DNA from: Xanthobacteraceae bacterium
GTDB taxonomy: Bacteria; Pseudomonadota; Alphaproteobacteria; Rhizobiales; Xanthobacteraceae
Assembly: GCA_050725855.1 (NCBI GenBank)
Contig: JBOHIU010000214.1
Span: forward strand, 32,838 to 96,837
Length of the DNA: 64,000 nucleotides
Reading direction: 5' to 3'
Shown here: positions 4,581 through 55,281 of the stretch, in pieces
How the letters are laid out: each line of letters opens with the position of its first letter
Numbering within the stretch: position 1 is the stretch's first letter
The notes under the pieces: model-generated
Told to the model about the DNA's origin: nothing
What the model saw: only the letters and a program-made list of their open reading frames with translations
Databases searched by the model: none
Made by a program: the position numbers and the translations under genes

Positions 4581-4682
4581 AGAACAAGAGAACGCCGGTC
4601 GAAAAGGGCTCCGGAGCAAAAAGTCGAAGCGTGCTTGCGGCAGGTGGCGCTGGACACATTTGATCCGCCCAAACACCGTCAA

Positions 4683-4842
4683 GTGTGGTGGTTCAGAAGT
4701 CCGCATCATTCCTAAGGCGGGGCTGTTATGCGGACTTCCGAACCGTAGCCACGCGAGATCAATAACTTGCTAGTGTCTCTTCGATTCTGAAGTTCGCAAA
4801 CGAGAGTGCCGCATCATGATGCGATCGGAAGCGGGACACTAG
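4683..4842 (+). repeat. double-hairpin intergenic element, copy 1 (subfamily 1, second hairpin partly decayed)
   Basis: GTGTGGTGGTTCAGAAGTCCGCAT..loop..ATGCGGACTTCCGAACCGTAGCCACGC / linker ATCAATAACTTG / CTAGTGTCTCTTCGATTCTGAAGTTCGCA..loop..TGCGATCGGAAGCGGGACACTAG. Lies 40 nt downstream of the porin stop. Confidence 0.9.
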
Positions 4843-21384: not shown

Positions 21385-21551
21385 CTAGTGTCCCGATTCC
21401 GAAGTTCGCATCATTGTGTGGCCCCCTCGTTTGCGAACTTCGCAATCGAAAGGACACTAGCAAGTTGTCGATCTAGTACGGCTTTGGTTCAGAAGTCCGC
21501 ATAACGAGCCCCGCCGTAAGAATAATGCGGACTTCTGAACCGCCACACTAG
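21385..21551 (-). repeat. double-hairpin intergenic element, copy 2 (subfamily 1, inverted orientation)
   Basis: CTAGTGTCCCGATTCCGAAGTTCGCA..TGCGAACTTCGCAATCGAAAGGACACTAG / CAAGTTGTCGAT / CTAGTACGGCTTTGGTTCAGAAGTCCGCAT..ATGCGGACTTCTGAACCGCCACACTAG. The terminal CTAG contains the acs stop codon. Confidence 0.92.
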
Positions 21552-23497
21552 GCGTTTTCCTTGCTTCGATTCTGCCGGTTCTTGACCAGGTCGTCGACCA
21601 CCGCCGGATCGGCAAGCGTCGACGTGTCGCCGAGATTGCCGGACTCGCCCTCGGCGATCTTGCGCAGAATGCGTCGCATGATTTTGCCCGAGCGGGTCTT
21701 CGGCAGGCTTGGAGCGAACTGGATGAGATCGGGCGAAGCGATCGGACCGATTTCTTTGCGCACCCAGTCGACGAGATCCTTATGCAATTTTTCGCCGGGT
21801 TGTTCGCCCGCCATGAGCGTGACATAGGCGTAGATGCCCTGTCCTTTGATGTCGTGCGGATAACCGACGACGGCGGCTTCGGACACTTTCGGATGCGCCA
21901 CCAGCGCCGATTCGACCTCGGCCGTGCCGAGCCGATGGCCCGCGACGTTGATAACATCATCGACGCGGCCGGTGATCCAGTAATAGCCGTCCTCGTCGCG
22001 GCGGCAGCCGTCGCCGGTGAAATACTTTCCTGGATAAGTGCTGAAATAGGTGTCGATGAAGCGCTGATGGTCACCATAGACGGTGCGCATCTGCCCGGGC
22101 CAAGAATCGGCAAGACAGAGATTGCCGCTGCCGGCACCCTCTTGCACTTTGCCGTCGCCATCGACGATTTGAGGAACAATACCGAAGAACGGTTGGGTCG
22201 CCGAGCCCGGTTTAAGCCGAGTCGCGCCCGGCAGCGGCGTAATCAGGATGCCGCCAGTTTCGGTCTGCCACCAGGTGTCGACGACGGGACATCGGCCATC
22301 GCCAACGACGCGGTGATACCATTCCCACGCTTCCGGATTGATCGGTTCGCCGACGCTGCCCAGAAGCCGCAGTGACGCGCGCGAGGTTTTAGTCACCGGC
22401 GCGTCTCCCGCCTGCATCAGGGCGCGGATCGCGGTCGGCGCGGTGTAGAAGATATTGACTTGGTGCTTGTCGATCACTTCCCAGAAGCGCGACATGCTGG
22501 GGTAGTTCGGCACGCCCTCGAACATCAGCGTGGTGGCGCCGTTGCAGAGCGGACCATAGACGATATAGCTGTGGCCGGTGACCCAGCCGACGTCGGCGGT
22601 GCACCAATAGACATCGCCGTCGTGGTAATCGAAGACGTATTGGTGCGTCATCGACGTAAAGACCAGATAGCCGCCGGTCGTGTGCAACACGCCTTTCGGC
22701 TTTCCGGTCGAGCCAGACGTATAGAGGATGAACAGCGGGTCTTCCGCGTTCATTTCCTCGCACGGACAATCGGCGGTTACGACTTCCTTGGCCTCATGAT
22801 ACCAGACGTCCCGGACCGGATCCATGTCGACCGGCGCGCCGGTCCGCTTGACCACAATGACGAAATCGACGCCGCCGGCTTTTGCGACCGCCGCATCGGT
22901 GTTGGCCTTGAGCGGAATCTTGCGGCCGCCGCGCAGCCCCTCGTCGGCGGTTATGACGACTTTCGACTTGCAGTCTTCGATGCGGCCGGCCAGCGACTCC
23001 GGTGAGAAACCGCCAAACACCACGGAATGAATGGCGCCAATGCGCGCGCAGGCGAGCATGGCGTAAGCCGCCTCCGGGATCATCGGCATATAGATGGTGA
23101 CGCAGTCGCCCTTCTTGACGTTGCGATTGCGCAGGATGTTGGCGAAGCGACAGACCTCGTCATGCAGTTCGCGATAGGTGATTTTCTTTGATTCTTTCGG
23201 GTCGTCGGCTTCCCAGATGATCGCCGTCTGATTACCGCGCAAATGCAGATGGCGATCGATGCAATTATAGGCGGCATTGGTAGCGCCGTCCTCGAACCAT
23301 TTGATCGATACCGGTTTGGCGAAGGAGGTATTCTTGACCTTGCTGAAATGCTTCATCCAGTGGATGCGGTTGGCCTGCTCGGCCCAGAATGCATTTGGCT
23401 CCTTGAGCGAGGCCGCATACATTTGCTGGTACTTGGCGTCATCGACATAGGCGCGCTTTTTCCATTCCGCCGGCACGTCATAAATTTTTTCGCTCAT
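21548..23497 (-). CDS. acs: acetyl-CoA synthetase
   Basis: 649 aa, full-length Acs similarity ([33 protein letters not shown]). Confidence 0.95.
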
Positions 23498-30878: not shown

Positions 30879-31044
30879 CTAGTGGTCCGATTCCAGCATT
30901 CGCATCCGGGCTCGGCAGGCTTTCATGCTGAATGCTGGAGTCGAAGGAGCACTAGCAAGTATAAGGCTCATGGACTTTTTGGGTTTGACATTCGCTTGTC
31001 GAGTTCGCGGTGGGGCAGGTAGCGAATGTCAAATCGCTCCACTA
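30879..31044 (-). repeat. double-hairpin intergenic element, copy 4 (subfamily 2, inverted orientation, diverged stems)
   Basis: CTAGTGGTCCGATTCCAGCATTCGCAT..ATGCTGAATGCTGGAGTCGAAGGAGCACTAG / CAAGTATAAG.. / GGTTTGACATTCGCT..AGCGAATGTCAAATCGCTCCACTA. The terminal CTA is the stop codon of the murU-like gene. Confidence 0.9.
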
Positions 31045-31812
31045 TGCTGTCGTGGCGAGCGCTGCCTCGGCCGCTGCAACAGCTTGCGGTGTGCCGACAT
31101 GCATCCAGACGCCTTCGAGGCGGAGCCCGAACAGCCGTCCGCGTGCCGCGGCACTATCAAACAACAGCGTAAGTGCAAACGGGCTTGCGGGCGCCCCCGC
31201 AAATAGCGTCGGCGACAGGATCGCGGCGCCCGCGTATACGAACGGGACAACCTCGCGCTCGGCGCGCCGTCGCAGCCGGCCATCGGGCTGCATGGCGTAG
31301 TCGCCGCTTCCTTGGTAGCCGATGCTGCCGGCAGTCGGTGCGAGCAAGAGAAGGGCATCCATGTCGCCGGCATCGAAAGCGTCAGCAAGCCGTACAAAAT
31401 TCGGTTTGACGCCATCGAGCCACAGCGTGTCGGAATTGACCAGAAAGAACGGCGCATCGCCCAATCGCGGCAGCGCCCTGGCGATGCCGCCGCCGGTACC
31501 CAGAAGCGCGCCGCGTTCGTCCGAAACGACGATCTGCGGTTCTTTCCGCGACGCCAAATGCAGCTCCAGCGCGTCGGCGAGATAATGAACGTTGACCACG
31601 GCGCGCTCGACGCCGGCTTCGGCGAGCCGATCGAGCGCATAATCGATCAGTGGCTTGCCGCCAACTCGGACGAGCGGTTTGGGGAGCGTGCCGTCATGGG
31701 GCCGCATGCGCGTACCAAGGCCGGCGGCCAACACAATCGCGGATGTCGGCATCGTCGATTGACCCGTCCAGGATAGTGCCCCCATCGTCGCGCCTCGCGT
31801 CACGCCGCCCAT
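31042..31812 (-). CDS. sugar-1-phosphate nucleotidyltransferase (MurU-like N-acetylmuramate-1-P uridylyltransferase)
   Basis: AIVLAAGLGTRMRP motif. Probable start is Met21 at 31752. Conserved position next to the TsaE/kinase gene. Confidence 0.8.
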   Translation of the reverse strand: MGGVTRGATMGALSWTGQSTMPTSAIVLAAGLGTRMRPHDGTLPKPLVRVGGKPLIDYALDRLAEAGVERAVVNVHYLADALELHLASRKEPQIVVSDERGALLGTGGGIARALPRLGDAPFFLVNSDTLWLDGVKPNFVRLADAFDAGDMDALLLLAPTAGSIGYQGSGDYAMQPDGRLRRRAEREVVPFVYAGAAILSPTLFAGAPASPFALTLLFDSAAARGRLFGLRLEGVWMHVGTPQAVAAAEAALATTA

Positions 31813-31828
31813 TCCGCGAATCGCACTA

Positions 31829-33367
31829 CTATACTTGTTGCGGCGCCGGCACGTTGGCCGCGTACCATTCCTTCAAGGAAACGAGCGCCGGATGTGCGAG
31901 CGAACGGTGCAGGTACCGCCATAGACGGGGAATATGGCACAGATATTGCGGTTTGCCGTCGCGCCGATTGAGCCGTGCGAAGATGCCCAGAATTTTGGTT
32001 GCGCGTTGGGCGGCCAGTGTTGCGTAAAGCAGGGCAAAGTCGGCCGGGTCGAAGCGGCTGTCGCCTGTCATGCGAGCGCGGACATAGCGGCTGAGCAGTA
32101 GCACCTCCGTGGATTCCGGCACGTCCACGCGCGCATCCTGCAACAGCGACGCGACGTCGTACGCCGCCGGACCGACGACGGCGTCCTGAAAATCCAGTAC
32201 GCCAATGCGAGCAATATCCAACCGATCCTCAAGCCACAGCAGGTTAGGCGAATGATAATCGCGGAGCACCCAGGTTTTGGGCGCCTCGATGGCGGGTGTC
32301 AGCGCCGCCCGCCACAGCGCGGCGAATTTGACCCGTTCCTCCTCGCCGATCTGTGCCTTCACATGCGGCAAATACCAGTCGAGCAGAAGCTCGGCCTCGA
32401 TCAAAAAAGCCGGCATGTCGTAGGGCGGCAGCTTGTATTCGCGGTGCGGCGCCAGCGGCAATGTTTCCGGCAGCCGGCGCCGATGCAGCGCAACCAACGC
32501 ATCGAGTGCTGTTTGGTAGCGCGTTTCGATCGGTGCCGGCGGATCGCCTTCGACGATCCGCTCGGTGCCGAGGTCCTCCATGATGACCAAGCCACGATCC
32601 GTGTCGGCGTGAAAAATCAACGGCGTGGAAAGATTGCGTTCGTGCAGAGCCGACGCCAGGGCGACGTACGGAACGGTATTCTCGGCGAGATGGGCGATTG
32701 CGCTATAAGGCTTGCCGTCGCGGACCGGCGGACCGTCGGGATGCGGCGGCGCGTTCATCAATATCGTTGTCTGCTCGGCGAGCGTCAGCCGCTCGAAGAC
32801 GCGGGTGGACGCGTCGCCTTGCATGCGCCGGCGCTCCGCATCGCGGTAACCGGTCTCGTCGAGAAAGGAGCGGATTTGGCCGATTCGCTCGGCCCGCGCG
32901 GCGAAGGCGCCGTAGCCGGTATAGCGCACATTACGCATCTCGGCGCCTAATGCCGGCGCCAGCGTGAACGTGATATCGAGCCGATCGGCCGGCAGAAGTC
33001 CGGCGGCGCGATCAGGCCATTCCATCAGCACCACGCTTTGTTCGGGCAGATCGTCAAAGCCGATCTCAGCCAGTTCGGCGGCGCTCGATAGCCGATACAG
33101 ATCCGCATGCACCAGCGTGAAGCGCGGCAGGTCGTAGCTCTGTAACAACGTGAAGGTCGGGCTCGGTACCTCGAGCTTATCATCGCCGGCGAGATAGCGG
33201 ATCAGCGCGCGCGCAAAGGTGGTTTTGCCAGCGCCCAGATCGCCCGACAGCGTAACAAGATCGCCGGGCTCAAGAGTGCAAGCGACATCGATGGCGAAGC
33301 GCGCGGTTGCTCCCTCATTGGGCAAGTTCTTTGAAAAGCTTGCCCCACCCGTGCTGGTCAGAAGCAT
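31829..33367 (-). CDS. fused TsaE (t6A ATPase) / aminoglycoside-phosphotransferase-fold kinase (AmgK-like)
   Basis: 512 aa. The N-terminal ~150 aa are TsaE (GDLGAGKTTFARALIR, PSPTFTL, HADLYRL). The remainder is an APH/choline-kinase fold (LRDYHSPNLLW, VLDFQDA). Confidence 0.85.
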   Translation of the reverse strand: MLLTSTGGASFSKNLPNEGATARFAIDVACTLEPGDLVTLSGDLGAGKTTFARALIRYLAGDDKLEVPSPTFTLLQSYDLPRFTLVHADLYRLSSAAELAEIGFDDLPEQSVVLMEWPDRAAGLLPADRLDITFTLAPALGAEMRNVRYTGYGAFAARAERIGQIRSFLDETGYRDAERRRMQGDASTRVFERLTLAEQTTILMNAPPHPDGPPVRDGKPYSAIAHLAENTVPYVALASALHERNLSTPLIFHADTDRGLVIMEDLGTERIVEGDPPAPIETRYQTALDALVALHRRRLPETLPLAPHREYKLPPYDMPAFLIEAELLLDWYLPHVKAQIGEEERVKFAALWRAALTPAIEAPKTWVLRDYHSPNLLWLEDRLDIARIGVLDFQDAVVGPAAYDVASLLQDARVDVPESTEVLLLSRYVRARMTGDSRFDPADFALLYATLAAQRATKILGIFARLNRRDGKPQYLCHIPRLWRYLHRSLAHPALVSLKEWYAANVPAPQQV

Positions 33368-33458
33368 TGCGGCGATCCGCTAAGGTGTTCTCAGAAATCG
33401 CATAGGCTTTCACAACCGAGATTGCGCCTGCGCCAATTCCGGCACAACACCGTCCTAT

Positions 33459-33625
33459 TAGGGGAGCGGATTTGACATTCGCTACCCACCTGGCCGAAAG
33501 CTCCAGTAGCGAATGTCAAATCCAAAGCTCCACAACCACTTATATTTTTCTAGCGGTCCTTTGATTCTAACATTCGCATGATCGAGTGCCGAAATGGAAT
33601 GCGAATGTTAGAATCGGTCCACTAG
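33459..33625 (+). repeat. double-hairpin intergenic element, copy 5 (subfamily 2)
   Basis: TAGGGGAGCGGATTTGACATTCGCTA..TAGCGAATGTCAAATCCAAAGCTCCAC / CACTTATATTTTT / CTAGCGGTCCTTTGATTCTAACATTCGCAT..ATGCGAATGTTAGAATCGGTCCACTAG. The terminal CTAG contains the kinase stop codon. Confidence 0.92.
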
Positions 33626-36261
33626 GCCGCCGTCAGCGCTGTTGCGACGTTCCCGGCCGGGAAGGTGCAAGTCACCGTAGTGCCCTGGCCGACAACCGAC
33701 GCAATCGTCACAGTGCCGCCGTGCAGTTCGACGAACGAGCGCACAAGGGAAAGCCCTATTCCCGGTCCGCGATGGTGCGAACCGAGCGAATGCGTTTCGA
33801 ACCAGTCGAAGACTCGCTCCAGCACCTCGGGCGGAATGCCCGGTCCGCTGTCGCTGACCGAGAATGACACCTCGTCGGCGCGCCGGTCGGCCTGCAAGAT
33901 GACCGTTGCGCCGCCCGGAGAAAAGGTCACGGCGTTGGCCATGAGATTGAACAGAATCTGCCGCACGCGGCGGCCGTCGGCGACGAAGCTGCCGATACCG
34001 GCGGCTGCCTTGATATCCAGCGTGATGCCGGCGCTTACCAGGCGATCCTGCACCCCTTCGGCCGCCGCCTGCATGGTCGCGCGAATGTCGACCAAGCCGA
34101 GATTAAGCTGCATGCGGCCGGCATCGATCGTCGCCAGATCGAGAATGTTGTTGATCAGCGCCAGCAGTGTATTCGAAGAGACCGTGATGTAATCGAGATA
34201 TTCGAGCTGCTTCGGGGCGAGCGGGCCGGTCGCCGGATCGCCGAGCAGATGCACGAAGCCGATGATGTTCGTGAGCGGCGAGCGCAGCTCGTACGATACA
34301 TGATGCACGAAGCTGATCTTGACGCGGTCGGCCTCCTCGAGCGCGTCATTGCGTTCGCGCAGGGCGCGCTCGACATTGACCGAGTCCGTCACGTCGTGGA
34401 AGGTCGCCAGAGTGGCGCCGCCCGGCAACGGCACGGTGGTGCAATCGATCACGCTGCCGTCGCGCCGTTCTAATCGCCCGGCGATGGCTTTGCGGCTGTC
34501 GATTGCCGTTACCACTTCGCGCAACGATTGCCACGTGGGATCATCGCCATGCAGCGGCCGACATAGCGTCGTGATGGTTTCGATATGCGGCCGTTCGGCA
34601 AGCATCTGATGCGGCAGCTTCCACATTCTGGCGAACGCGGCATTGTGCAGCCGCAGTCTTCCATCGCTCCCGAACACAGCAACGCCTTCGGCAAGATTGT
34701 CGAGTGTTTCACCTTGGACGCGGATCAGTTCCTCGAAACGCCGCTCCAAATCAAGCCGCTCGGTCACATCGTGGAAAAGGTAGGTGACGCCGCCATCCGG
34801 GTTCGGCGTGGTGACGACCCGCAAGGTGCGCCCGTCGGGCAGGTGCCAGATATGCTCCTTGGCTTCGCTGGCGCGATAAGCCGTGTGCAGTTGCGCCTTC
34901 CATTGCCGAAAGCTCTGCTGCTCCGGCAGTTTGCGCCGTACCCGCAATTCGTCGAGCATGGCCGAATCAGTCGGGCCCTGATCCAGATATGCCGCATCGA
35001 GTTCCCACAAGGCGCGATAGGCCGCATTGTAGAAGGTGAGCCGTTGGGCGGGCCCGAACATGGCGACGCCGGTCGAGAGCTGATCCAGAGTGCGCCGGTG
35101 AGCGTCGACCAGGCGCGCCAGCGCACTGCGCATTGTTTCCGCTTCGGTGGCGTCGATGCCAATCCCGGCGCTGCCGCTGTCGGTACGAACGTCCAGCACG
35201 TCCAAGCTGCGCCGCACCCCCGCAGCGACTGCAGCCAGGCGGCCCGAATAGGCGCCGCCGCTCGCGCGCGCAGTGGCGATCGTTTCGCGTGCCGCACTGT
35301 CGAGCAATTCCAGGTTTCGTTCGACCGCATCGGCCTGGTCCTTGGCTTCGACGGCGCGCGCATAAGCTGAATTGACGAAGCTGAGCCGGCCGACGCCGTC
35401 GCGCGTCCATGCCGGTGACGGCAGCGTTTCGATGAGCGTGCGCAGCGATTCGACTTCGGTCAGCAAACGCTGATGACGCCCCGTGAGCTGCACCAATTCG
35501 CGCGTCAGCGCGGTCGCGTCCCTGAGCTGCAGCACGGCGCGGCCGCCGAGGGCCCGGCCTTGGGCCTCGATCGGCCGATCGTTAAGCGCCGTGACATTCA
35601 TGACGAAGGCTTCGCCCCGCGTCCGCAGGGCCTCGACCGCATGGTCCATGGCGCTGGCCTGGGTCGCATCTAACCACGAGCCGAACGCCAGTACGTGGCG
35701 CGATTTGTTCACACCGAGAATTTCGACGTCGCCGTCGACGTGGGGTCGGTCGGAGGCAGCCGGCCAATCTACGAGCACTTGCCGCTGCGACAGCAAAAGC
35801 GCGTTCGCGCGGTCAAGCCGGTCGCGCAGGACGGCGATTTGCTCGCGGGAAGTGGCTTCCAGACGGGCAGCGCGCGTTGAAGTTCGCACCAGCAGAATTG
35901 CGGTGATCACGGCGAAGAAAACCAGTCCGAGCATCGGTACCAGGACGGCGATCTCGTGGCTGCCGAAGTCATGATAGACGCCGAGCGTAAGGTCTTCAGC
36001 GCTGCCGAGGGAATGTTGCTCGGCGCGAGCCAGCGCCGTGCACGGCGAGGCGAAGAGCATCAGCAAGGCGAACGGCAATGCGCGGGCGGCGAGCGAGCCG
36101 GCCGCCAGGAATCCGCCTTGCCGCGGACGCGCACAGCCCGCCCTCGTCCGGATTATCTCCGGCATGCCCCTTTGCCTCTGCTGGCGATCCCGCCGCCGCG
36201 CCAGCCGCGAATCAGACGACTTTACTCTCAAGCGAAATCGTGCCGAAAGAGTCCAGATCAA
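33622..36261 (-). CDS. divL: membrane-anchored multi-PAS histidine-kinase-fold protein with Tyr at the phospho-acceptor position (DivL-like)
   Basis: 879-aa ORF; the real start is probably Met33 at 36165. H-box reads FVHHVSYELRSPLTNIIGF, with Y where the canonical motif has H-E-L-R-x-P-L. Complete HATPase_c (DSGPGIP, GPGIGLSLV). Confidence 0.6.
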   Translation of the reverse strand: MIWTLSARFRLRVKSSDSRLARRRDRQQRQRGMPEIIRTRAGCARPRQGGFLAAGSLAARALPFALLMLFASPCTALARAEQHSLGSAEDLTLGVYHDFGSHEIAVLVPMLGLVFFAVITAILLVRTSTRAARLEATSREQIAVLRDRLDRANALLLSQRQVLVDWPAASDRPHVDGDVEILGVNKSRHVLAFGSWLDATQASAMDHAVEALRTRGEAFVMNVTALNDRPIEAQGRALGGRAVLQLRDATALTRELVQLTGRHQRLLTEVESLRTLIETLPSPAWTRDGVGRLSFVNSAYARAVEAKDQADAVERNLELLDSAARETIATARASGGAYSGRLAAVAAGVRRSLDVLDVRTDSGSAGIGIDATEAETMRSALARLVDAHRRTLDQLSTGVAMFGPAQRLTFYNAAYRALWELDAAYLDQGPTDSAMLDELRVRRKLPEQQSFRQWKAQLHTAYRASEAKEHIWHLPDGRTLRVVTTPNPDGGVTYLFHDVTERLDLERRFEELIRVQGETLDNLAEGVAVFGSDGRLRLHNAAFARMWKLPHQMLAERPHIETITTLCRPLHGDDPTWQSLREVVTAIDSRKAIAGRLERRDGSVIDCTTVPLPGGATLATFHDVTDSVNVERALRERNDALEEADRVKISFVHHVSYELRSPLTNIIGFVHLLGDPATGPLAPKQLEYLDYITVSSNTLLALINNILDLATIDAGRMQLNLGLVDIRATMQAAAEGVQDRLVSAGITLDIKAAAGIGSFVADGRRVRQILFNLMANAVTFSPGGATVILQADRRADEVSFSVSDSGPGIPPEVLERVFDWFETHSLGSHHRGPGIGLSLVRSFVELHGGTVTIASVVGQGTTVTCTFPAGNVATALTAA

Positions 36262-36288
36262 GAACAGCCAATTTAGCCCCGCGCCGCG

Positions 36289-36762
36289 CTACGCGGTCCC
36301 CGTCGAGCCCATGCCACCGGCGGCGCGCTCGGTCGTATCAAGGTTTGCGGTTTCGAGCAGTCTGGCGCGCTCGACACGCGCGACGACCAGCTGTGCAATG
36401 CGCATCCCACGGCTGACGGTGAATGGTTCGCTGCCGAGATTGATCAGAATCACCTGGATTTCGCCGCGATAATCGGCGTCGATTGTCCCCGGCGTATTAA
36501 GTACGGTAACGCCGTGGCGAATGGCGAGGCCCGAGCGCGGCCGGATCTGCCCTTCGCTGCCGCCCGGGAGCGCGACGGCAATGCCGGTCGGGATCATGGC
36601 GCGGCCACGTGGTGCGATTTCGACCGGGGCGTTGGCTGGGACTGCAGCCATAAGATCAAGCCCGGCGGCGAGCGCGCTTTGGTAGGCCGGCAACGGCAGG
36701 TCCGCTCCGTGTGGCAAGCGCACGACGCGAACGTCGATGGAGTCTTGTCTCGCGCTACTCAC
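36289..36762 (-). CDS. dut: dUTP diphosphatase
   Basis: 157 aa. [26 protein letters not shown]. Confidence 0.93.
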
Positions 36763-38174
36763 CGTTTTGCCGCCGCGAGCGCTGCCGCGATCCGTTCGAT
36801 CAGGTTGCCCGCCACGTCCTCTTTCGATTGCGGCGGCCAGGATTCAATCCCGGACGCGGTAACAAGGTGAATCGTATTGCTGTCGCCGCCCATGATCCCG
36901 GTCTCCGGCGAAACGTCATTGGCCAGGATCCAGTCGCAGCCCTTTTTGGCGAGCTTGGCTTTTGCATTGGCGACGACGTTGTCTGTCTCCGCGGCAAATC
37001 CGATGACGAGTGCCGGCCGGCCGGCCTTGCGGTGAGCAAACGTCGCCAGGAGATCGGGGTTTTCCACCAGCGCGAGTTGCTGTGGGCCGCCTTGCTGCTT
37101 CTTGATTTTGTGGGCGCTCGCCTCCGCGACCCGCCAATCGGCGACCGCCGCAGCAAAAACAGCCACGTCGGCCGGGAGCGCCTTTTCGACGGCATCGAGC
37201 ATCTGCCTCGCGGTCTCCACTTTGACCACGGCTACGTTCGGCGGATCGGGTATGTCGACGGGGCCCGACACAAGCATCACGTCGGCGCCTGCAGCCGCTG
37301 AAGCTGCAGCAATCGCGTGGCCCTGCTTGCCGGAGGAGCGATTGGCGATGAAGCGGACGGGGTCGATCGGTTCATGGGTAGGTCCGGAGGTCACCAACAC
37401 ACGCTTGCCGGTAAGTTGTCCTCGTGGTCGCAATATCGCGTCGACCGCACCGGCGATCTCGTTGGGCTCCGCCATGCGGCCGAGACCGGCTTCGCCGCGT
37501 TCCGCCATCTCGCCGCTGCCGGGACCGATCAGGCGGATCCCATCAGCCACAAGCTGGGCCAGATTGCGCTTTGTTGAGTTGGCGCTCCACATGCGCGGGT
37601 TCATCGCCGGTGCAAGAACGATCGGCTTGTCAGTCGCCAGCAGCACTGCGGAGGCAAGATCATCGGCGTGACCGCCCGCCATCTTGGCCATCAGATCGGC
37701 GGTTGCCGGCGCCACGACAATGAGATCGGTGTCGCGCCCCAGGCGGATATGGCCCACGTCGAACTCGCCGTGCGCATCGAACAGATCGGTGTGAGCGCGC
37801 TCGCCGCAGAGGGCGCCGGCTGCAAGCGGCGTCACGAATTGCCGTGCGGCTTCGGTGAGAATGCAGCGTACGCGCGCGCCGCGGTCCTGCAGCCGGCGGA
37901 TGAGGTCGAGCGATTTATAGGCCGCAATGCCGCCGCCGATGATGAGCAGGACGCGCTTGGTGTCTGCCCGGCCGATGGTCGCCTGCCGCCGAACCGGCTG
38001 ATCGGGGGGCTCGAACTGCTCCAGCACGCTGAGCCCGGTATCCTGCGCAGCATCCTTGAGGATAACGCGAACCTCATCCTCCATCGAGCGGCCGTGCCGC
38101 GCGGCGCGCAGACGGAGCAGCGTCTTCAGCCTGTCGTCGATCTGCCGAACGGTGAGGCTTCCCATGGGATTCAC
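36759..38174 (-). CDS. coaBC: bifunctional phosphopantothenoylcysteine decarboxylase / phosphopantothenate-cysteine ligase with an N-terminal ribbon-helix-helix (FitA/VapB-antitoxin-like) extension
   Basis: The CoaBC core starts near residue 72 ([23 protein letters not shown]). Residues 4-40 ([39 protein letters not shown]) match the RHH antitoxin consensus. No stop separates the two parts. ORF-track start is GTG 38174; an ATG lies at 38165. Confidence 0.85.
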
Positions 38175-38198
38175 TCGCCAGAGCCGGCATCATATCGG

Positions 38199-38234
38199 AC
38201 CGGTGATTGCATTGCAATCAATGCAATCACCGGT
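38199..38234. other. perfect 15-bp-stem palindrome spanning the ubiB stop codon, just upstream of the coaBC start
   Basis: ACCGGTGATTGCATT-gcaatc-AATGCAATCACCGGT. No U-tract on either strand. Confidence 0.85.
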
Positions 38235-39813
38235 GCAGGATGATCAGCCAAGCCAACAGCGCCGCAATGATCCAGAGTGCCGCGATGGTCCAGCGGCCGC
38301 GCCGCGCCTCGGCTTTGTCGATCTCGGCGATCGTTGCGGGCGATAGCGCGAGGCCGTCGCGGGTTATTTCGTCAAGTTGCTCGAGCACGCGGACTCCGCG
38401 CGCCAACAGGCCCGGTGCGTTGCCGACAAAACGGCCCAACTGAGATGCGCCTTCCGCCGCGCTCTCCAGCTTGCCCGTCGGGCCAAGATGCCGAGCCATC
38501 CATTCGCCGACGACCGGCTCGGCAGTGCTCCACATGTCGAGCTTTGGATCGAGGGAGCGCGCCACGCCCTCGACCACCACCATGGTTTTCTGCAGGAGCA
38601 GAAGTTCGGGCCGTGTGCGCATGTCGAAAATGCCGGTCACTTCAAATAACAGCGTGAGCAGCCGCGCCATCGAAATCTCCTCGGCCGTGCGGCTGTGTAT
38701 CGGCTCGCCGATGGCGCGAATGGCTTGCGCGAACTCATCGACCGAATGGTGGCGCGGCACATAGCCGGCCTCGAAATGGACTTCGGCCACCCGGCGATAA
38801 TCGCGGGTGATGAAGCCATGCAGGATCTCTGCGAGGAACAAGCGTTCCTTCGCACCCAGCCGTCCCATAATGCCGAAGTCGACCGCGATCAGCCTTCCTT
38901 CGTCGTCGGCGAACAGGTTGCCGGGGTGCATATCGGCGTGAAAGAAGCCGTCGCGCAGCGCGTGCCGCAGGAACGTTTGGATCAGCGCGCGGGCGACTTG
39001 ACGCAGATCGAGGCCCTTGGCTTGCAGGTTGGCCCGGTCGGACAAGGCGGTCGCATCGATCCATTCAAGCGTGAGCACGTCCTTACTGGTGCGATCCCAA
39101 TCGACGGCCGGTACTCGAAAATCGGGATCGTTTTTGGTGTTTTCGGCTATCTCCGAGGCTGCTGCCGCCTCCAGGCGGAAATCCATCTCGACCATGACCG
39201 ATCGCCGCAATGTGTCGACGACCTCGATCATCCGCAGCCGTCGGGCCTCGGCTGACAAGTTTTCCGCGTGACGCGCCACATAGGTGAAGGCGCGCAGATC
39301 CGCATGAAAACGCTCTTCAATTCCGGGCCGCAACACCTTGACGGCGACGGCGCGCGGGCCGGCCGCAGTCGCTACCGAGGCGCGGTGCACTTGCGCGATC
39401 GAGGCCGCCGCGACCGGCGGGCCGAAGCTCGCGAACACCTCGCCGGGCGAGCGCCCCAGCGACATGGCAACGACGCGCTCTGCCTCGGCTTGGGCGAACG
39501 GCGGCATGTGATCTTGCAACTGCTCAAGATCGCGGGCGAGCGCCACGCCGACGACATCGGGCCTGGTCGCCAGAAACTGGCCAAGTTTGACGTAGCTTGG
39601 TCCGAGCCGCGTGAGCGCTTTCGACAGCCGCGCCTTCGCGCTACCGCGGCTCGGTCGCTCGACCAGCCGGGCGAGCCGCAGTCCGATGCGCGCCGGCACC
39701 GGCAGCATTGCCGGCTCGACAAGTCCAAAAACGCCTTCGCGCGCGAAAACAAATCCGGCGCGGCCGATTCGCAGGAGATTCGCAGGGCCGGAGATCACAA
39801 GCGCCAGCCGCAA
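38227..39813 (-). CDS. ubiB: ubiquinone biosynthesis ABC1/UbiB-family kinase-like protein
   Basis: 528 aa with ABC1 domain motifs ([24 protein letters not shown]) and C-terminal TM helices. Confidence 0.92.
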
Positions 39814-40553
39814 TGCAGCGCCACGATTCCGCCGCTCATCAGCTTGTGCGTGACGCGACCAAAGCCGGCCGCACGCAGCATGGCGGCGAAATCCTGCGGC
39901 GTCGGAAAACGGCGGATCGATTCTACCAGGTAGCGATACGCGTCGGCATCGCCGGCAACGACGCGGCCCAGCGAAGGGATGACCTTGAACGAGTAGAAGT
40001 CATAGAGACGATCAAGGCCCGGTATGTCGACGGCGGAGAATTCGAGGCAAACGAACTTGCCTCCAATCTTGAGAACGCGAAACGCCTCGGCGAGTCCGGC
40101 CTCGATGCGCGCCACGTTGCGGATACCGAAGGCAATGGTCGCGGCATCGAAGCTGCGATCGGCAAACGGCAGCGACTCGGCGTTGGCTTCGGTGAAGCTT
40201 ATCGCCTCGCCAAGCCGGCGCGTGGCGGCACGTTCACGGCCGACCGTCAGCATGTCGGCGTTGATATCGCAGACCGTTGCGCGCGCCTGCAGGCCGCCCG
40301 CCTCGATCACGCGGAACGCCACATCGCCCGTGCCGCCGGCGATATCGAGTAGCGCGAACGGGCTATTCTTCGGCGGATCGAGAGCTGTGATCAGCGCATC
40401 CTTCCAGGCACGATGCAGCCCGAACGACATCAGATCGTTCATCAGGTCATAGCGGCGCGCGACGCTGCGGAAAACGCCGTCGACCAGTGCCTGCTTGTCG
40501 TCAAGCGGCACTTTGCGCGAACCGAAATGGGTCTCATTCATCGCCGATCTCAC
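39795..40553 (-). CDS. ubiE: demethylmenaquinone/ubiquinone C-methyltransferase
   Basis: 252 aa. [27 protein letters not shown]. 19-nt overlap with ubiB. Confidence 0.93.
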
Positions 40554-40627
40554 AACTTAAGCATAGCGCGGCTGCGTCAGCGACGCTATGTGTCGAAAAT
40601 TAACCATGTTTCCCGGACGCGCCGGAT

Positions 40628-40796
40628 CTAGTGGAGCGGATTTGACATTCGCTATCCACCCAGCCGAGAAGTTCCAGTAGCGAATGTCAAATCCAAAGCT
40701 CCACTAGCACTTATATTTGCTAGTGGCCCCTTTGATTCTAACATTCGCATGTGAGGGTGCCGAAATGGGATGCGAATGTTAGAATCGGGCCACTAG
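40628..40796 (+). repeat. double-hairpin intergenic element, copy 6 (subfamily 2, best-preserved copy)
   Basis: CTAGTGGAGCGGATTTGACATTCGCTA..TAGCGAATGTCAAATCCAAAGCTCCACTAG / CACTTATATTTG / CTAGTGGCCCCTTTGATTCTAACATTCGCAT..ATGCGAATGTTAGAATCGGGCCACTAG. Both inner stems are 17 bp and perfect. Ends 2 nt before the mutM ATG. Confidence 0.95.
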
Positions 40797-40798
40797 CG

Positions 40799-41692
40799 AT
40801 GCCCGAACTGCCCGAAGTCGAAACCGTGCGCCGCGGGCTCGAGCCCGCCATGGAGGGTGCCCGCTTCACCAAGGTGGAGGTGCGCCGTGGCGATCTGCGC
40901 TGGCCGCTGCCCAAGGATTTCAAGGCGCAGCTCGAGGGTAAGACGGTCACCGGCATGGGCCGTCGGGCCAAATATTTGCTCGCCGACCTGTCCTCGGGCG
41001 AGGTTCTGCTCATGCATCTCGGCATGTCGGGTTCTTTTTATGTGTTCGATGAAAAAGCCCACGCAGCCAAAGGCGAAACGCCGGGCCTCTATTATCATCA
41101 GCGCGCCCAGCATATCGCCCACGACCATGTGGTTTTTCATATGTCGTCGGGCATGGTCGTGACTTTCAACGATCCGCGCCGCTTCGGTTCGATGAAGGTC
41201 GTGCCGCGCCAACAGCTCGACACTGAGCCGCTCCTCAATCGGCTCGGCCCGGAGCCGCTCGGCAACGAATTCGATGCGACCATGTTGGCGTGCGCCTGCG
41301 CGGGCAAGAAGACAAGCCTCAAGGCGGCGCTGCTGGACCAGCGTGTCGTTGCCGGGCTCGGCAACATCTATGTTTGCGAGGCGCTGCATCGCGCTCACCT
41401 GTCTCCCAAGCGAACGGCTTCCACCATCGCCAGCCGAAACAGGGCGCCGAACGAACGCGCTGAACGCCTTGTTGATGGCATCAAGGCCGTGCTCAACCAG
41501 GCCATCAAGGACGGCGGCTCGACACTCCGCAATCACCGGCTCACCGATGGCGATCTCGGCATGTTCCAGACCCATTTCCGCGTCTACGATCGGGAAGGCC
41601 GGAAATGTCCGGCACCGGGCTGTGGCGGTACCGTCAAGCGTATCGTGCAGAGCGGACGATCAACGTTCTATTGCCCGACATGCCAGAAGTGA
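40799..41692 (+). CDS. mutM: formamidopyrimidine-DNA glycosylase
   Basis: Starts [15 protein letters not shown]-terminal zinc finger [27 protein letters not shown]. The ORF-track start 40751 lies inside the repeat. Confidence 0.93.
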
Positions 41693-55015: not shown

Positions 55016-55120
55016 GCCGGGCAGATGTGGCGCGCGCGGTCGGCAGAGGCAAGAGGCGAATGCCAGACACGACGACAGAGTGTATGGAAGAGGGCTCTGG
55101 AAGATGGCACAAGGCATCTC

Positions 55121-55281
55121 GTGTGGCGGTTCAGAAATCCGCATCATTCTTGCCGCACTCCATTATGCGGATTTCTGAACCAAAGCCACACTAAATCAAT
55201 AAGTTGCTAGTGTCCCTCGATTCCGAAGTTCGCAAACACGGGTGTCGCAGAATGATGCGAACTTCGGAATCGGGACGCTGG
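55121..55281 (+). repeat. double-hairpin intergenic element, copy 3 (subfamily 1)
   Basis: GTGTGGCGGTTCAGAAATCCGCAT..ATGCGGATTTCTGAACCAAAGCCACAC / TAAATCAATAAGTTG / CTAGTGTCCCTCGATTCCGAAGTTCGCA..TGCGAACTTCGGAATCGGGACGCTGG. Confidence 0.92.

What the first reader, a model, noticed from the sequence alone, without database searches (positions are those of the whole stretch)
30879..40796. Two subfamilies of the element keep identical architecture through compensatory changes in both hairpin arms
Seen, hairpin 2 inner stems. Copies 5 and 6: GATTCTAACATTCGCAT / ATGCGAATGTTAGAATC. Copy 4: ..TCCAGCATTC.. / ..GAATGCTGGA.. Copies 2 and 3: GATTCCGAAGTTCGCA / TGCGAACTTCGGAATC. The ends GATTC...TTCGCA are constant, while the central 5 nt differ between subfamilies and are matched on the opposite arm. 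Seen, hairpin 1 inner stems: GGATTTGACATTCGCTA / TAGCGAATGTCAAATCC in subfamily 2 versus GGTTCAGAAGTCCGCAT / ATGCGGACTTCTGAACC in subfamily 1. Within subfamily 1, copy 3 has AAATCC/GGATTT where copy 2 has AAGTCC/GGACTT. Flanks (GTGG.GCGG on the left, CC-AAAG-C..CAC on the right) and linker ends (TTGCTAG) are shared. Inference: selection or a copying mechanism maintains the fold rather than the sequence. This is expected for a structure-recognised substrate (HUH/RAYT-type transposase, structured RNA, or protein-bound hairpin) and less so for a simple decaying repeat.
Basis: seen in the sequence. Interest (0 to 1): 0.7.

Follow-up and report, generated by a model that had tools for sequence, protein, structure and literature searches.

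The report
CTAG-targeting double-hairpin mobile DNA repeat
The window carries six copies of a roughly 170-bp mobile DNA repeat, made of two long hairpins, that inserts at the rare sequence CTAG; its subfamilies differ by matched changes on both hairpin arms, as in known bacterial hairpin repeats such as REPINs and MITEs, but the repeat fits none of the catalogued families I could check.

Summary
There are six copies: three inside the stated span and three outside it. Each copy is two bulged hairpins of 76-80 nt, each bounded by CTAG, joined by a 12-13 nt A/T-rich linker.

In 121-131 copies from Xanthobacteraceae genomes, and in 88 independent metagenome copies, the arms are 94-96% paired. Forty-one of 54 pairs show changes on both sides.

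The element is mobile DNA, not an RNA:
- Syntenic relatives have an empty site that lacks exactly the element minus one CTAG.
- Whole elements sit nested inside the CTAG of other elements.
- Thirty-seven of 131 copies overlap a neighbouring gene's TAG stop codon.
- G:T and A:C mismatches are equally frequent.
- Orientation is unrelated to transcription.
- Rfam has no match.

Arm sequence is conserved as well as pairing: 99% in the arms against about 70% in the loops. One core position co-varies across all four arms.

Variants of the outer CTAG are matched by the inner hairpin partner, not by the other end. This argues against a simple TA duplication and for recognition of folded hairpins.

No transposase or RAYT was found, so the enzyme is unknown. 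I rate it a new variant of the REPIN/BIME/MITE kind.

The parts
40628..40796 (+). Copy 6, subfamily 2, complete element. It lies between ubiE (start at 40553, - strand) and mutM (ATG at 40799).
   Evidence: nhmmer 169.7 bits; sequence; DNA fold -52.6 kcal/mol, z -12.4. The syntenic spacers in L120, L121 and L122 are empty.
40628..40707 (+). Copy 6, hairpin 1: CTAGTGGAGC + GGATTTGACATTCGCTA / loop / TAGCGAATGTCAAATCC + AAA bulge + GCTCCACTAG
40708..40719 (+). Copy 6, A/T-rich linker CACTTATATTTG. The family consensus AATCA[T/A]NNNNTTG resembles an IHF site.
40720..40796 (+). Copy 6, hairpin 2: CTAGTGGCCC + CTTT bulge + GATTCTAACATTCGCAT / loop / ATGCGAATGTTAGAATC + GGGCCACTAG
33458..33625 (+). 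Copy 5, subfamily 2 (hairpin 1 33458-33536, linker 33537-33549, hairpin 2 33550-33625). The terminal CTAG (33622-33625) contains the TAG stop codon of the 879-aa histidine-kinase ORF 33622..36261 (-).
30879..31045 (-). Copy 4, subfamily-2 variant (TCCAGCATTC / GAATGCTGGA), reverse orientation. Hairpin 2 is at 30879-30955 and hairpin 1 at about 30966-31045. The degenerate foot CTAT (31042-31045) holds the stop codon of the NTP-transferase ORF 31042..31812 (-).
4670..4842 (+). Copy 1, subfamily 1. The 3' arm of hairpin 2 is partly deleted.
21385..21551 (-). Copy 2, subfamily 1, reverse orientation. The terminal CTAG (21548-21551) contains the TAG stop codon of the acetyl-CoA synthetase ORF 21548..23497 (-).
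55108..55281 (+). Copy 3, subfamily 1, with a private compensated change (AAATCC / GGATTT). It lies between divergent genes: an ABC ATPase and an HbpS-like gene.

Best explanation
The six copies belong to a large family of non-autonomous mobile DNA repeats found in Xanthobacteraceae and related Hyphomicrobiales (Bradyrhizobium, Nitrobacter, Afipia, Pseudolabrys, Rhodoplanes) and in soil metagenomes.

Shown:
- The unit is an inverted doublet. A bulged hairpin module of about 75 nt, bounded by CTAG on both sides, is followed by a 12-13 nt A/T-rich linker and then the same module inverted. The AAA bulge on the 3' arm of hairpin 1 becomes a TTT bulge on the 5' arm of hairpin 2.
- The whole doublet moves as one piece.
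- It inserts at a CTAG. Afterwards CTAG is found on both sides, and the net gain is the element minus one CTAG.
- Because CTAG is rare and often includes a TAG stop codon, copies end up wedged between genes, at stop codons, and inside other copies.
- Lineages keep both arms of each hairpin complementary and largely constant in sequence, while loops and linker drift. Subfamilies therefore differ by matched changes on both arms.

Inferred:
- Only copies whose arms still pair and still carry the recognition sequence get copied, and this produces the compensatory pattern.
- The mobilising enzyme recognises the modules as folded hairpins on single-stranded DNA, in the manner of REP/RAYT or IS200/IS605 ends.
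- The outermost CTAG, including the one supplied by the target, pairs with the inner foot of the same hairpin.
- The enzyme is encoded elsewhere in the genome and acts in trans.

I put the mobile-DNA, CTAG-target part at about 0.9 and the folded-hairpin recognition part at about 0.45.
For: Family size, boundaries and host range:
- 131 full-length copies were found in 119 genome loci, with sharp ends at CTAG...CTAG and random flanks.
- 88 more came from a metagenome scan anchored only on the linker.

Mobility:
- The ubiE-mutM spacer reads GGAT|CTAG..164 nt..CTAG|CGATG in the window, against GGATCGAGCAATG in L120/L121 and CGATCAAACGATG in L122. No element occurs anywhere in those syntenic loci.
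- Complete doublets are nested in the CTAG at the 3' foot of hairpin 1 of host elements in L115, L012 and L058, in either orientation. A tandem pair in L014 shares one CTAG.
- 127 of 131 copies are intergenic, and 37 have a neighbouring gene's TAG stop codon inside the terminal CTAG (22 at one end, 15 at the other).
- CTAG occurs 32 times in the window against 218 expected, and 15 of the 32 lie inside the elements.

Palindrome constraint:
-, and (95.7% pairing within hairpins against 68-71% between them).
- Arms are 99% conserved against about 70% for loops.

Folded-hairpin recognition rather than target duplication:
- About 49 variants of the outer TA were seen. About 20 are matched by the complementary change in the inner foot of the same hairpin (CCAG/CTGG, CTGG/CCAG, CTCG/CGAG, TTAG/CTAA, CAAG/CTTG). 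Only about 3 are repeated at the other outer end.
- The 3-nt bulge is conserved in position and sequence.

DNA rather than RNA:
- G:T 99 against A:C 90, and 60 against 49.
- No orientation bias with respect to flanking genes.
- No terminator-like tails.
- No Rfam family.
Against: - No candidate enzyme was found. There is no transposase or Y1/RAYT gene among about 38 window ORFs or among ORFs bracketed by element pairs. No protein family recurs next to elements in 1.5 Mb. IS200 and RAYT sequences recalled from memory found no homologue (a weak test).
- CTAG on both sides with a net gain of one CTAG is also exactly what an IS630-type TA duplication in CTAG, or an IS5/IS701-type 4-bp duplication, would give.
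- Strong conservation of arm sequence, discrete subfamilies and four-arm co-variation of the core fit sequence-specific binding to double-stranded DNA at least as well as recognition of structure alone.
- The foot co-variation could come from repair of hairpin mismatches in place, or from inheritance within lineages.
- There is no orientation bias with respect to GC skew (60:61), where IS200/IS605 elements show one. The test is weak, because skew is small and the element is a pseudo-palindrome.
Confidence: 0.5

Rival explanations
1. An ordinary MITE moved as double-stranded DNA by a DDE transposase that targets CTAG, either IS630/Tc1-mariner type (TA duplicated within CTAG) or IS5/IS701 type (4-bp CTAG duplication). 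On this reading the arms are inverted transposase-binding sites, so both arms of a pair, and partly all four arms, must carry the same recognition sequence. The ability to form hairpins is a by-product.
For: - CTAG on both sides and a net gain of the element minus one CTAG.
- IS630 prefers the TA within CTAG (Tenzen & Ohtsubo 1991, as cited in PMC2170065).
- Other transposons in the same genomes (an IS701-like IS, a GNAT-carrying TIR element and an IS5/IS427-like remnant) are also flanked by CTAG or inserted at one.
- Arm sequence is 99% conserved and subfamilies are discrete.
- The core base is concordant in all four arms, 64 of 64.
- Insertion occurs in either orientation.
Against: - Variants of the outer TA are mirrored by the inner foot of the same hairpin about 20 times, but by the other outer end only about 3 times. 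A target duplication predicts the opposite.
- Hairpin 1 and hairpin 2 differ consistently from each other, yet each stays perfectly self-complementary. A shared binding site does not require this.
- The inner arms and the conserved 3-nt bulge have no obvious role in this model.
- No parent element with these ends was found in 1.5 Mb, and there was no match in 72,556 plasmids.
Confidence: 0.3
2. The repeats are no longer mobile, or only rarely so. On this reading the compensatory pattern is produced in place: each long palindrome extrudes as a hairpin or cruciform during replication, and repair copies one arm onto the other (gene conversion within the element). The host may also keep the copies as protein-binding sites, for example for IHF or gyrase, as with E. 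coli BIMEs.
For: - Closely related copies within one MAG carry different compensated foot variants (L013, L017 and L001).
- Private compensated changes exist, such as AAATCC/GGATTT in c3.
- The linker resembles the IHF consensus: at most 1 mismatch in 45 of 131 copies against 65 of 655 shuffles (consensus recalled from memory).
Against: - Conversion alone would let the arm pairs drift as fast as the loops, yet arms are 99% conserved against about 70% for loops.
- Empty sites and nested whole-element insertions show real mobility.
- The copies sampled are a tiny fraction of each genome, so 'private' changes may belong to lineages.
Confidence: 0.1
3. A structured RNA, either a small RNA or a cis-regulatory double hairpin, whose stems are kept by selection on the transcript.
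For: - Strong covariation and very stable folds.
- Intergenic location.
- Subfamily 2 carries an outward-facing extended -10-like TGTTAGAAT.
Against: - G:T and A:C mismatches are equally frequent (99 against 90, and 60 against 49).
- No orientation preference with respect to neighbouring genes, and copies occur in divergent, tandem and convergent spacers.
- Presence/absence polymorphism and nesting.
- No T-tract terminators.
- No Rfam match even at E up to 10, other than generic hairpin miRNA models far below their thresholds.
Confidence: 0.05

Closest known systems
REPINs / BIMEs (REP doublets mobilised by RAYT Y1 transposases; E. coli, Pseudomonas)
   Same: - High-copy extragenic palindromes.
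- The replicating unit is an inverted doublet separated by a short linker.
- Hairpin stems are kept through compensated changes.
- Several subfamilies coexist in one genome.
- Some BIME linkers carry an IHF site.
- The enzyme is encoded elsewhere and acts in trans.
   Different: - Modules here are bulged hairpins of about 75 nt with 27-bp stems, not 20-40 nt REPs.
- They are bounded by CTAG on both feet, not tagged by GTAG or CGTC (Di Nocera 2013, PMC3733652).
- A defined CTAG target is seen.
- No RAYT was found.
IS630/Tc1-mariner-derived MITEs (pneumococcal RUP; Neisseria Correia elements)
   Same: - Size of 100-170 bp, with inverted ends.
- Insertion at TA, preferably in CTAG for IS630.
- Either orientation; intergenic, close to genes.
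- Correia elements also carry an IHF site and outward promoters (my own knowledge).
   Different: - Each end is itself a long self-complementary hairpin.
- Outer TA variants follow the inner hairpin partner, not the other end.
- No parent IS with matching ends was found.
- The sequences are unrelated as far as I could check.
IS200/IS605-family ends and their miniature derivatives (PATEs); IS608 guide-target pairing
   Same: - Two similar hairpins at the two ends with a short middle.
- Insertion next to a specific tetranucleotide, with that tetranucleotide retained.
- In IS608 the cleavage and target tetranucleotide is read by base pairing with an internal guide sequence (my own knowledge). That would explain the co-variation between outer and inner feet seen here.
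   Different: - The hairpins are much longer.
- The target CTAG forms the outermost stem pairs.
- No orientation bias was detected.
- No TnpA or TnpB gene was found.
RIME1/RIME2 (Rhizobium-specific intergenic mosaic elements, Sinorhizobium; Osteras et al. 1995, from memory)
   Same: - Repeats in Rhizobiales.
- Intergenic, about 100 bp or more, built from two large palindromes.
   Different: - The host family is different.
- The sequences could not be compared here.
- I know of no report of CTAG targeting for RIMEs.
Integron attC sites
   Same: Bulged hairpins whose structure is conserved through covariation while the sequence varies, recognised as folded single strands.
   Different: - No cassette arrays and no integrase.
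- Scattered single copies in both orientations.
- Arm sequence is strongly conserved.

Membership tests
REP / BIME / REPIN (RAYT-associated) | Short (20-40 nt) imperfect palindrome with a conserved GTAG (or CGTC) tetranucleotide at one foot | tested here: not met
   Modules are 76-80 nt with 27-bp stems and CTAG at both feet. The definition is from PMC3733652.
REP / BIME / REPIN (RAYT-associated) | The mobile unit is an inverted doublet of the palindromic module | tested here: met
   Hairpin 2 is the reverse complement of hairpin 1: the AAA and TTT bulges mirror each other, and subfamily 1 shares the loop start CATCATT. Whole doublets are found nested.
REP / BIME / REPIN (RAYT-associated) | A cognate single-copy RAYT (Y1 transposase) gene flanked by the repeats | tested here: inconclusive
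   None was found in the window, between element pairs or in 1.5 Mb of loci. Whole genomes could not be searched.
MITE of an IS630/Tc1-mariner (or IS5/IS701) transposon | Target-site duplication: direct repeat of TA (or CTAG) at the two outer junctions | tested here: inconclusive
   The net gain equals the element minus one CTAG, and CTAG is on both sides. This fits. But about 20 of about 49 outer TA variants match the inner foot, and only about 3 match the other end. This does not fit.
MITE of an IS630/Tc1-mariner (or IS5/IS701) transposon | Terminal inverted repeats shared with an autonomous IS that encodes a DDE transposase | tested here: not met
   No long element with these ends was found in 1.5 Mb. 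The ISs seen there have other ends. No plasmid match. Whole genomes were not searched.
IS200/IS605-derived miniature element (PATE) | Insertion 3' of a fixed tetra- or pentanucleotide without duplication; hairpins at both ends | tested here: inconclusive
   The CTAG target and the two hairpins are compatible. I could not tell which of the two outer CTAGs comes from the target.
IS200/IS605-derived miniature element (PATE) | Orientation bias relative to replication (lagging-strand template) | tested here: not met
   60:61 with respect to local GC skew. Orientation is mixed (3 + and 2 -) among c1, c2, c4, c5 and c6, which lie within the mostly minus-strand-coded first 40 kb of the window. The test is weak: skew is small and the element is a pseudo-palindrome.
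Any Rfam RNA family | Covariance-model score at or above the family's gathering threshold | tested here: not met
   0 hits at gathering score over the whole window. Only generic miRNA hairpin models at 13-22 bits, against thresholds of 35-165 bits.
Integron attC | Arrays of cassettes, each ending in an attC site, next to an intI gene | tested here: not met
   Copies are 2.5-17 kb apart, in both orientations, between housekeeping genes. There is no integrase.
RIME1/RIME2 | Sequence similarity to the Sinorhizobium RIME consensus | not testable with these tools
The papers found only mention the name.

The most novel reading that the evidence does not exclude
The element may be the substrate of an undescribed single-strand DNA transposition system. 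In that system the target tetranucleotide is chosen by base pairing with the inner foot of the terminal hairpin, so that the target completes the stem. A lineage whose inner foot mutates (CTAG to CTGG) would then be redirected to the complementary target (CCAG). This would be a programmable target choice akin to IS608 guide sequences, but built into a 27-bp hairpin, carried by a pseudo-palindromic doublet that can use either strand, and served by an enzyme still to be identified.
Probability: 0.15. Interest if true: 0.75.

Novelty: new variant of a known kind. Interest (0 to 1): 0.5.

Why it matters
- These repeats occur about once per 10 kb in this window, and they are widespread in abundant soil bacteria of the Bradyrhizobium-Nitrobacter lineage. 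They therefore shape a large share of the intergenic regions in those genomes. They abut start codons (2 nt before the mutM ATG), supply or preserve TAG stop codons, and make up almost half of the CTAG sites in the window.
- They confuse searches for small RNAs and regulatory motifs, because they show textbook covariation without being RNAs.
- They fragment assemblies of metagenome-assembled genomes.
- They offer a natural dataset of hundreds of lineages for asking how a hairpin-bearing mobile element keeps its arms matched.
- If the co-variation between outer and inner feet reflects target choice by base pairing, the system would interest people who study or engineer single-strand DNA transposases.

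Tried and rejected
- Rfam, at gathering threshold on the whole window and at E up to 10 on two copies: nothing relevant.
- blastn of copy 3 against 72,556 plasmids: no match.
- Literature searches for MITE/REP/RAYT with Bradyrhizobium, for RIME, and for the arm sequences themselves. These gave only the GTAG/CGTC REP survey (PMC3733652) and IS630/CTAG references. No paper contains the arm sequences.
- Search for a parent element:
  - Split copies in L070, L016 and L114 turned out to be elements interrupted by unrelated ISs, or decayed solo hairpins.
  - Arms without a nearby partner were truncations.
  - Distant arm pairs were simply separate elements bracketing housekeeping genes.
- Pfam on about 38 window ORFs: all housekeeping.
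- Clustering of 1,362 predicted proteins from all loci: no family recurs next to elements.
This is a weak test.
- Orientation against GC skew and gene strand: no signal, with low power.
- Terminator scan: no T-tract terminators at the elements.
- P0001, the exact MutM of the window, could not be located in the assemblies index, so the name of the source organism was not recovered.
- The alternative fold that pairs hairpin 1 with hairpin 2 was rejected: 68-71% paired against 95.7%.

Full report
**What is in the sequence**

The window holds six copies of one element:

| Copy | Coordinates | Strand | Subfamily |
|---|---|---|---|
| c1 | 4670-4842 | + | 1 |
| c2 | 21385-21551 | - | 1 |
| c3 | 55108-55281 | + | 1 |
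| c4 | 30879-31045 | - | 2 |
| c5 | 33458-33625 | + | 2 |
| c6 | 40628-40796 | + | 2 |

The stated span covers only c4-c6. A profile built from the six copies finds exactly these six places. The sense strand scores 143-170 bits and the antisense strand at most 47 bits, so the element has a polarity. The core pattern occurs 10 times against 2.5 expected by chance. As single-stranded DNA, c6 and c3 fold into two long hairpins at -52.6 and -50.3 kcal/mol, 10-12 standard deviations below shuffled sequence.

**Anatomy**

The anatomy comes from 131 distinct full-length copies found in 119 genome loci.
- The element has sharp boundaries, and the flanks are random.
- It reads: CTAG-TG.. outer stem (10 bp), inner stem (14-17 bp), loop of about 20 nt with a partly conserved GCCGC, inner stem, a 3-nt AAA bulge, outer stem ..CA-CTAG. 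Then comes a 12-13 nt A/T-rich linker (consensus AATCA[T/A]NNNNTTG). Then comes a second hairpin with the same plan, except that the bulge (TTT or TTC) lies on the 5' arm.
- Hairpin 2 is therefore an inverted copy of hairpin 1, and the whole element is a pseudo-palindromic doublet.
- Pairing within each hairpin is 95.7%. Pairing between hairpins is only 68-71%. The two-hairpin form is the one being maintained.

**The compensatory changes**

On 121 aligned copies the named structure gives the following:
- 93.5% of cells are paired, against 82.5% after shuffling partners and 23-39% when the partner is slid by 1-3 columns.
- 41 of 54 pairs have changes on both sides, in 794 cells.
- The covariation score is 0.323 against 0.131, reached by 0 of 500 shuffles.

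Many pairs show three or four Watson-Crick types, including transversions such as GC/CG and AT/TA.

That first sample was fished with a pattern that fixed parts of hairpin 2. I therefore repeated the test on 88 metagenome copies fished only by the linker and its two CTAGs. These are 96.1% Watson-Crick against 76.4% shuffled, and 27 of 50 pairs have at least two Watson-Crick types each present in three or more copies. Many more subfamilies appear in this sample, in both hairpins.

**It is mobile DNA that targets CTAG**

(i) Empty sites. Between ubiE and mutM the window reads GGAT-CTAG-[element body]-CTAG-CG-ATG. Syntenic contigs whose MutM is 83-85% identical read GGATCGAGCAATG (L120, L121) and CGATCAAACGATG (L122). 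These contigs carry no element anywhere in up to 20 kb. The insertion adds 164 nt, which is the element minus one CTAG.

(ii) Nested copies. Complete doublets sit inside other elements in L115, L012 and L058, each time at the CTAG at the 3' foot of the host's hairpin 1. They occur in either relative orientation, with CTAG on both sides. A tandem pair in L014 shares one CTAG.

(iii) Position relative to genes. With a crude gene caller, 127 of 131 copies are intergenic. In 37 of them a neighbouring gene's TAG stop codon lies inside the terminal CTAG, 22 at one end and 15 at the other. In the window this holds for c2, c4 and c5.

(iv) CTAG is scarce. The window has 32 CTAGs against 218 expected from base composition. 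Fifteen of the 32 lie inside the six elements. This explains the nesting and the positions at stop codons. Other transposons in these genomes also use CTAG: an IS701-like IS, a TIR element carrying a GNAT gene, and an IS5/IS427-like remnant.

**It is not an RNA**

- G:T and A:C mismatches in the stems are equally frequent: 99 against 90, and 60 against 49. An RNA stem should tolerate G:U but not A:C.
- Orientation is unrelated to the neighbouring genes. Copies occur in divergent (38), tandem (36 + 25) and convergent (18) spacers.
- No T-tract follows the hairpins.
- Rfam gives nothing at gathering thresholds. Relaxed thresholds give only generic hairpin miRNA models far below their cut-offs.

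**What is constrained**

Within the largest subfamily (33 copies from different genomes, chosen on their 5' arms):

| Region | Agreement with consensus |
|---|---|
| 3' arms (not used for selection) | 99% |
| Outer stems | 87-95% |
| Bulges | 91% |
| Linker | 76% |
| Loops | 70-73% |
| Flanks | 33-36% |

So the arm sequence is kept as well as the pairing. The two copies from one genome, c5 and c6, share loop features that copies from other genomes lack. This is what lineages evolving within genomes would show.

One core position, GA[A/C], has the same state in hairpin 1 and hairpin 2 in 129 of 131 genome copies and in 64 of 64 metagenome copies. This amounts to one deep split, so it counts as a single event. 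It still shows that all four arms were changed together.

Hairpin 1 and hairpin 2 otherwise differ from each other in a way specific to each subfamily, and each remains self-complementary.

**How it may move**

CTAG on both sides with a net gain of one CTAG is what an IS630-type insertion would give. IS630 duplicates the TA within CTAG (Tenzen & Ohtsubo 1991, cited in PMC2170065). An IS5/IS701-type 4-bp duplication would give the same picture.

A duplication predicts that a variant outer dinucleotide is repeated at the other outer end. I tabulated the four CTAGs of every copy. About 49 outer variants were seen. About 20 are matched by the complementary change in the inner foot of the same hairpin (CCAG with CTGG, CTGG with CCAG, CTCG with CGAG, TTAG with CTAA, CAAG with CTTG). 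Only about 3 are repeated at the other end.

The outermost CTAG, one of which comes from the target, therefore behaves as part of the stem. Three things favour an enzyme that reads folded hairpins on single-stranded DNA, as RAYTs read REPs and IS200/IS605 TnpA reads its end hairpins:
- this foot pairing;
- the conserved bulge;
- the strict self-complementarity of each hairpin where the two hairpins differ.

In IS608 the target tetranucleotide is read by pairing with an internal guide (my own knowledge). A similar logic would explain the foot co-variation. This is inference, not demonstration. Repair of hairpin mismatches in place, or inheritance of both feet within lineages, could give the same pattern.

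**The enzyme was not found**

- The roughly 38 ORFs of the window are housekeeping genes, including AddAB, acetyl-CoA synthetase, thioredoxin, UbiB/UbiE, MutM, NAD-glutamate dehydrogenase and FabA/FabB.
- ORFs bracketed by nearby element pairs are housekeeping too.
- No long element carries these ends in 1.5 Mb of related sequence.
- No protein family recurs beside the elements.
- IS200 and RAYT sequences recalled from memory find nothing (a weak test).
- Orientation shows no relation to GC skew (60:61). The skew is weak, and the element looks nearly the same on both strands.

**Comparison with what is known**

The closest kinds are REPINs/BIMEs, IS630-type MITEs (RUP, Correia), miniature IS200/IS605 derivatives, and the RIME elements of Sinorhizobium.

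The element works like these. It is a short, non-coding, hairpin-forming repeat that is moved in trans and accumulates between genes. It fails the membership features I could test:
- It has neither the 20-40 nt size nor the GTAG/CGTC tag of REPs, including those described for Bradyrhizobium and Rhodopseudomonas (PMC3733652).
- Its junction variants do not behave as a target duplication.
- No parent IS was found.
- No orientation bias was found.

I found no Rfam family, no plasmid match and no paper containing its arm sequences. The literature library is incomplete, so an earlier description cannot be excluded.

**Verdict**

A palindrome or fold constraint on a recognised substrate exists, but it acts together with strong sequence conservation, at the DNA level, in a mobile element that targets CTAG.

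Compensatory evolution of mobile hairpin repeats is already known from REPINs (my own knowledge). The finding is therefore a new variant of a known kind, not a new principle. Its most interesting open points are the unknown enzyme and the pairing of the target-side CTAG with the inner foot.

Noticed in passing
window, whole; CTAG outside the elements at 525, 2486, 4908, 5343, 12499, 13892, 17272, 18781, 19101, 21040, 26895, 43388, 43525, 43804, 51074, 53984, 61288: CTAG is strongly under-represented: 32 seen against 218 expected from base composition and 49 from tri- and dinucleotide counts. Fifteen of the 32 lie inside the six elements, which make up 1.6% of the window.
   Followed up: partly
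window 40708-40719, 33537-33549, and the linkers of all copies: The linker consensus AATCA[T/A]NNNNTTG resembles the IHF consensus WATCAANNNNTTR, which I recalled from memory. At most 1 mismatch is seen in 45 of 131 elements against 65 of 655 shuffles, mostly at the linker.
   Followed up: partly
window 40776-40784 and 33605-33613 (+ strand), with mirror sites at about 40735-40743 and 33564-33572 (- strand): The hairpin 2 arms of subfamily 2 contain TGTTAGAAT, an extended -10-like motif that points outwards on both strands. Copy 6 ends 2 nt before the mutM ATG (40799), so the element may supply or displace the mutM promoter.
   Followed up: no
L070 1083-3410: A host element is interrupted at the 5' CTAG of its hairpin 2 by two other transposons, each flanked by CTAG. 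One is an element of about 0.9 kb with ends GCCGTGTACTCAT and a GNAT ORF. The other is an IS701-like IS with ends CACTACTTTGGCAGATTT and a 454-aa DDE transposase.
   Followed up: partly
L114 3861-4206: A remnant of an IS5/IS427-like transposase gene (C-terminal motif ..FFNKLKHFRAIATRYDK..) is inserted at the 3' CTAG of a host element's hairpin 1.
   Followed up: no
L112 103-198; L009 49-130; L002 7345-7424; L016 769-840 and 2354-2422: Solo modules exist. One is hairpin 1 plus linker plus CTAG, with hairpin 2 missing exactly at the CTAG. Others are lone hairpin 1 or lone hairpin 2. This suggests that single modules can be lost, or perhaps moved, at CTAG boundaries.
   Followed up: no
window 30879-33625: Copies 4 (-) and 5 (+) form an inverted pair that brackets two housekeeping genes (an NTP-transferase and TsaE/APH), like a composite transposon. 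This is probably coincidence.
   Followed up: no
window 38189-38244: An unrelated 26-nt inverted repeat, 85% complementary with a 4-nt gap (ATCATATCGGACCGGTGATTGCATTG / CAATGCAATCACCGGTGCAGGATGAT), lies between the CoaBC-like and UbiB genes (I7).
   Followed up: no
L122 2565-2891, compared with window 33368-33621: In the syntenic relative, a RelE-like toxin gene occupies the spacer between TsaE/APH and the histidine kinase, where the window carries copy 5.
   Followed up: no
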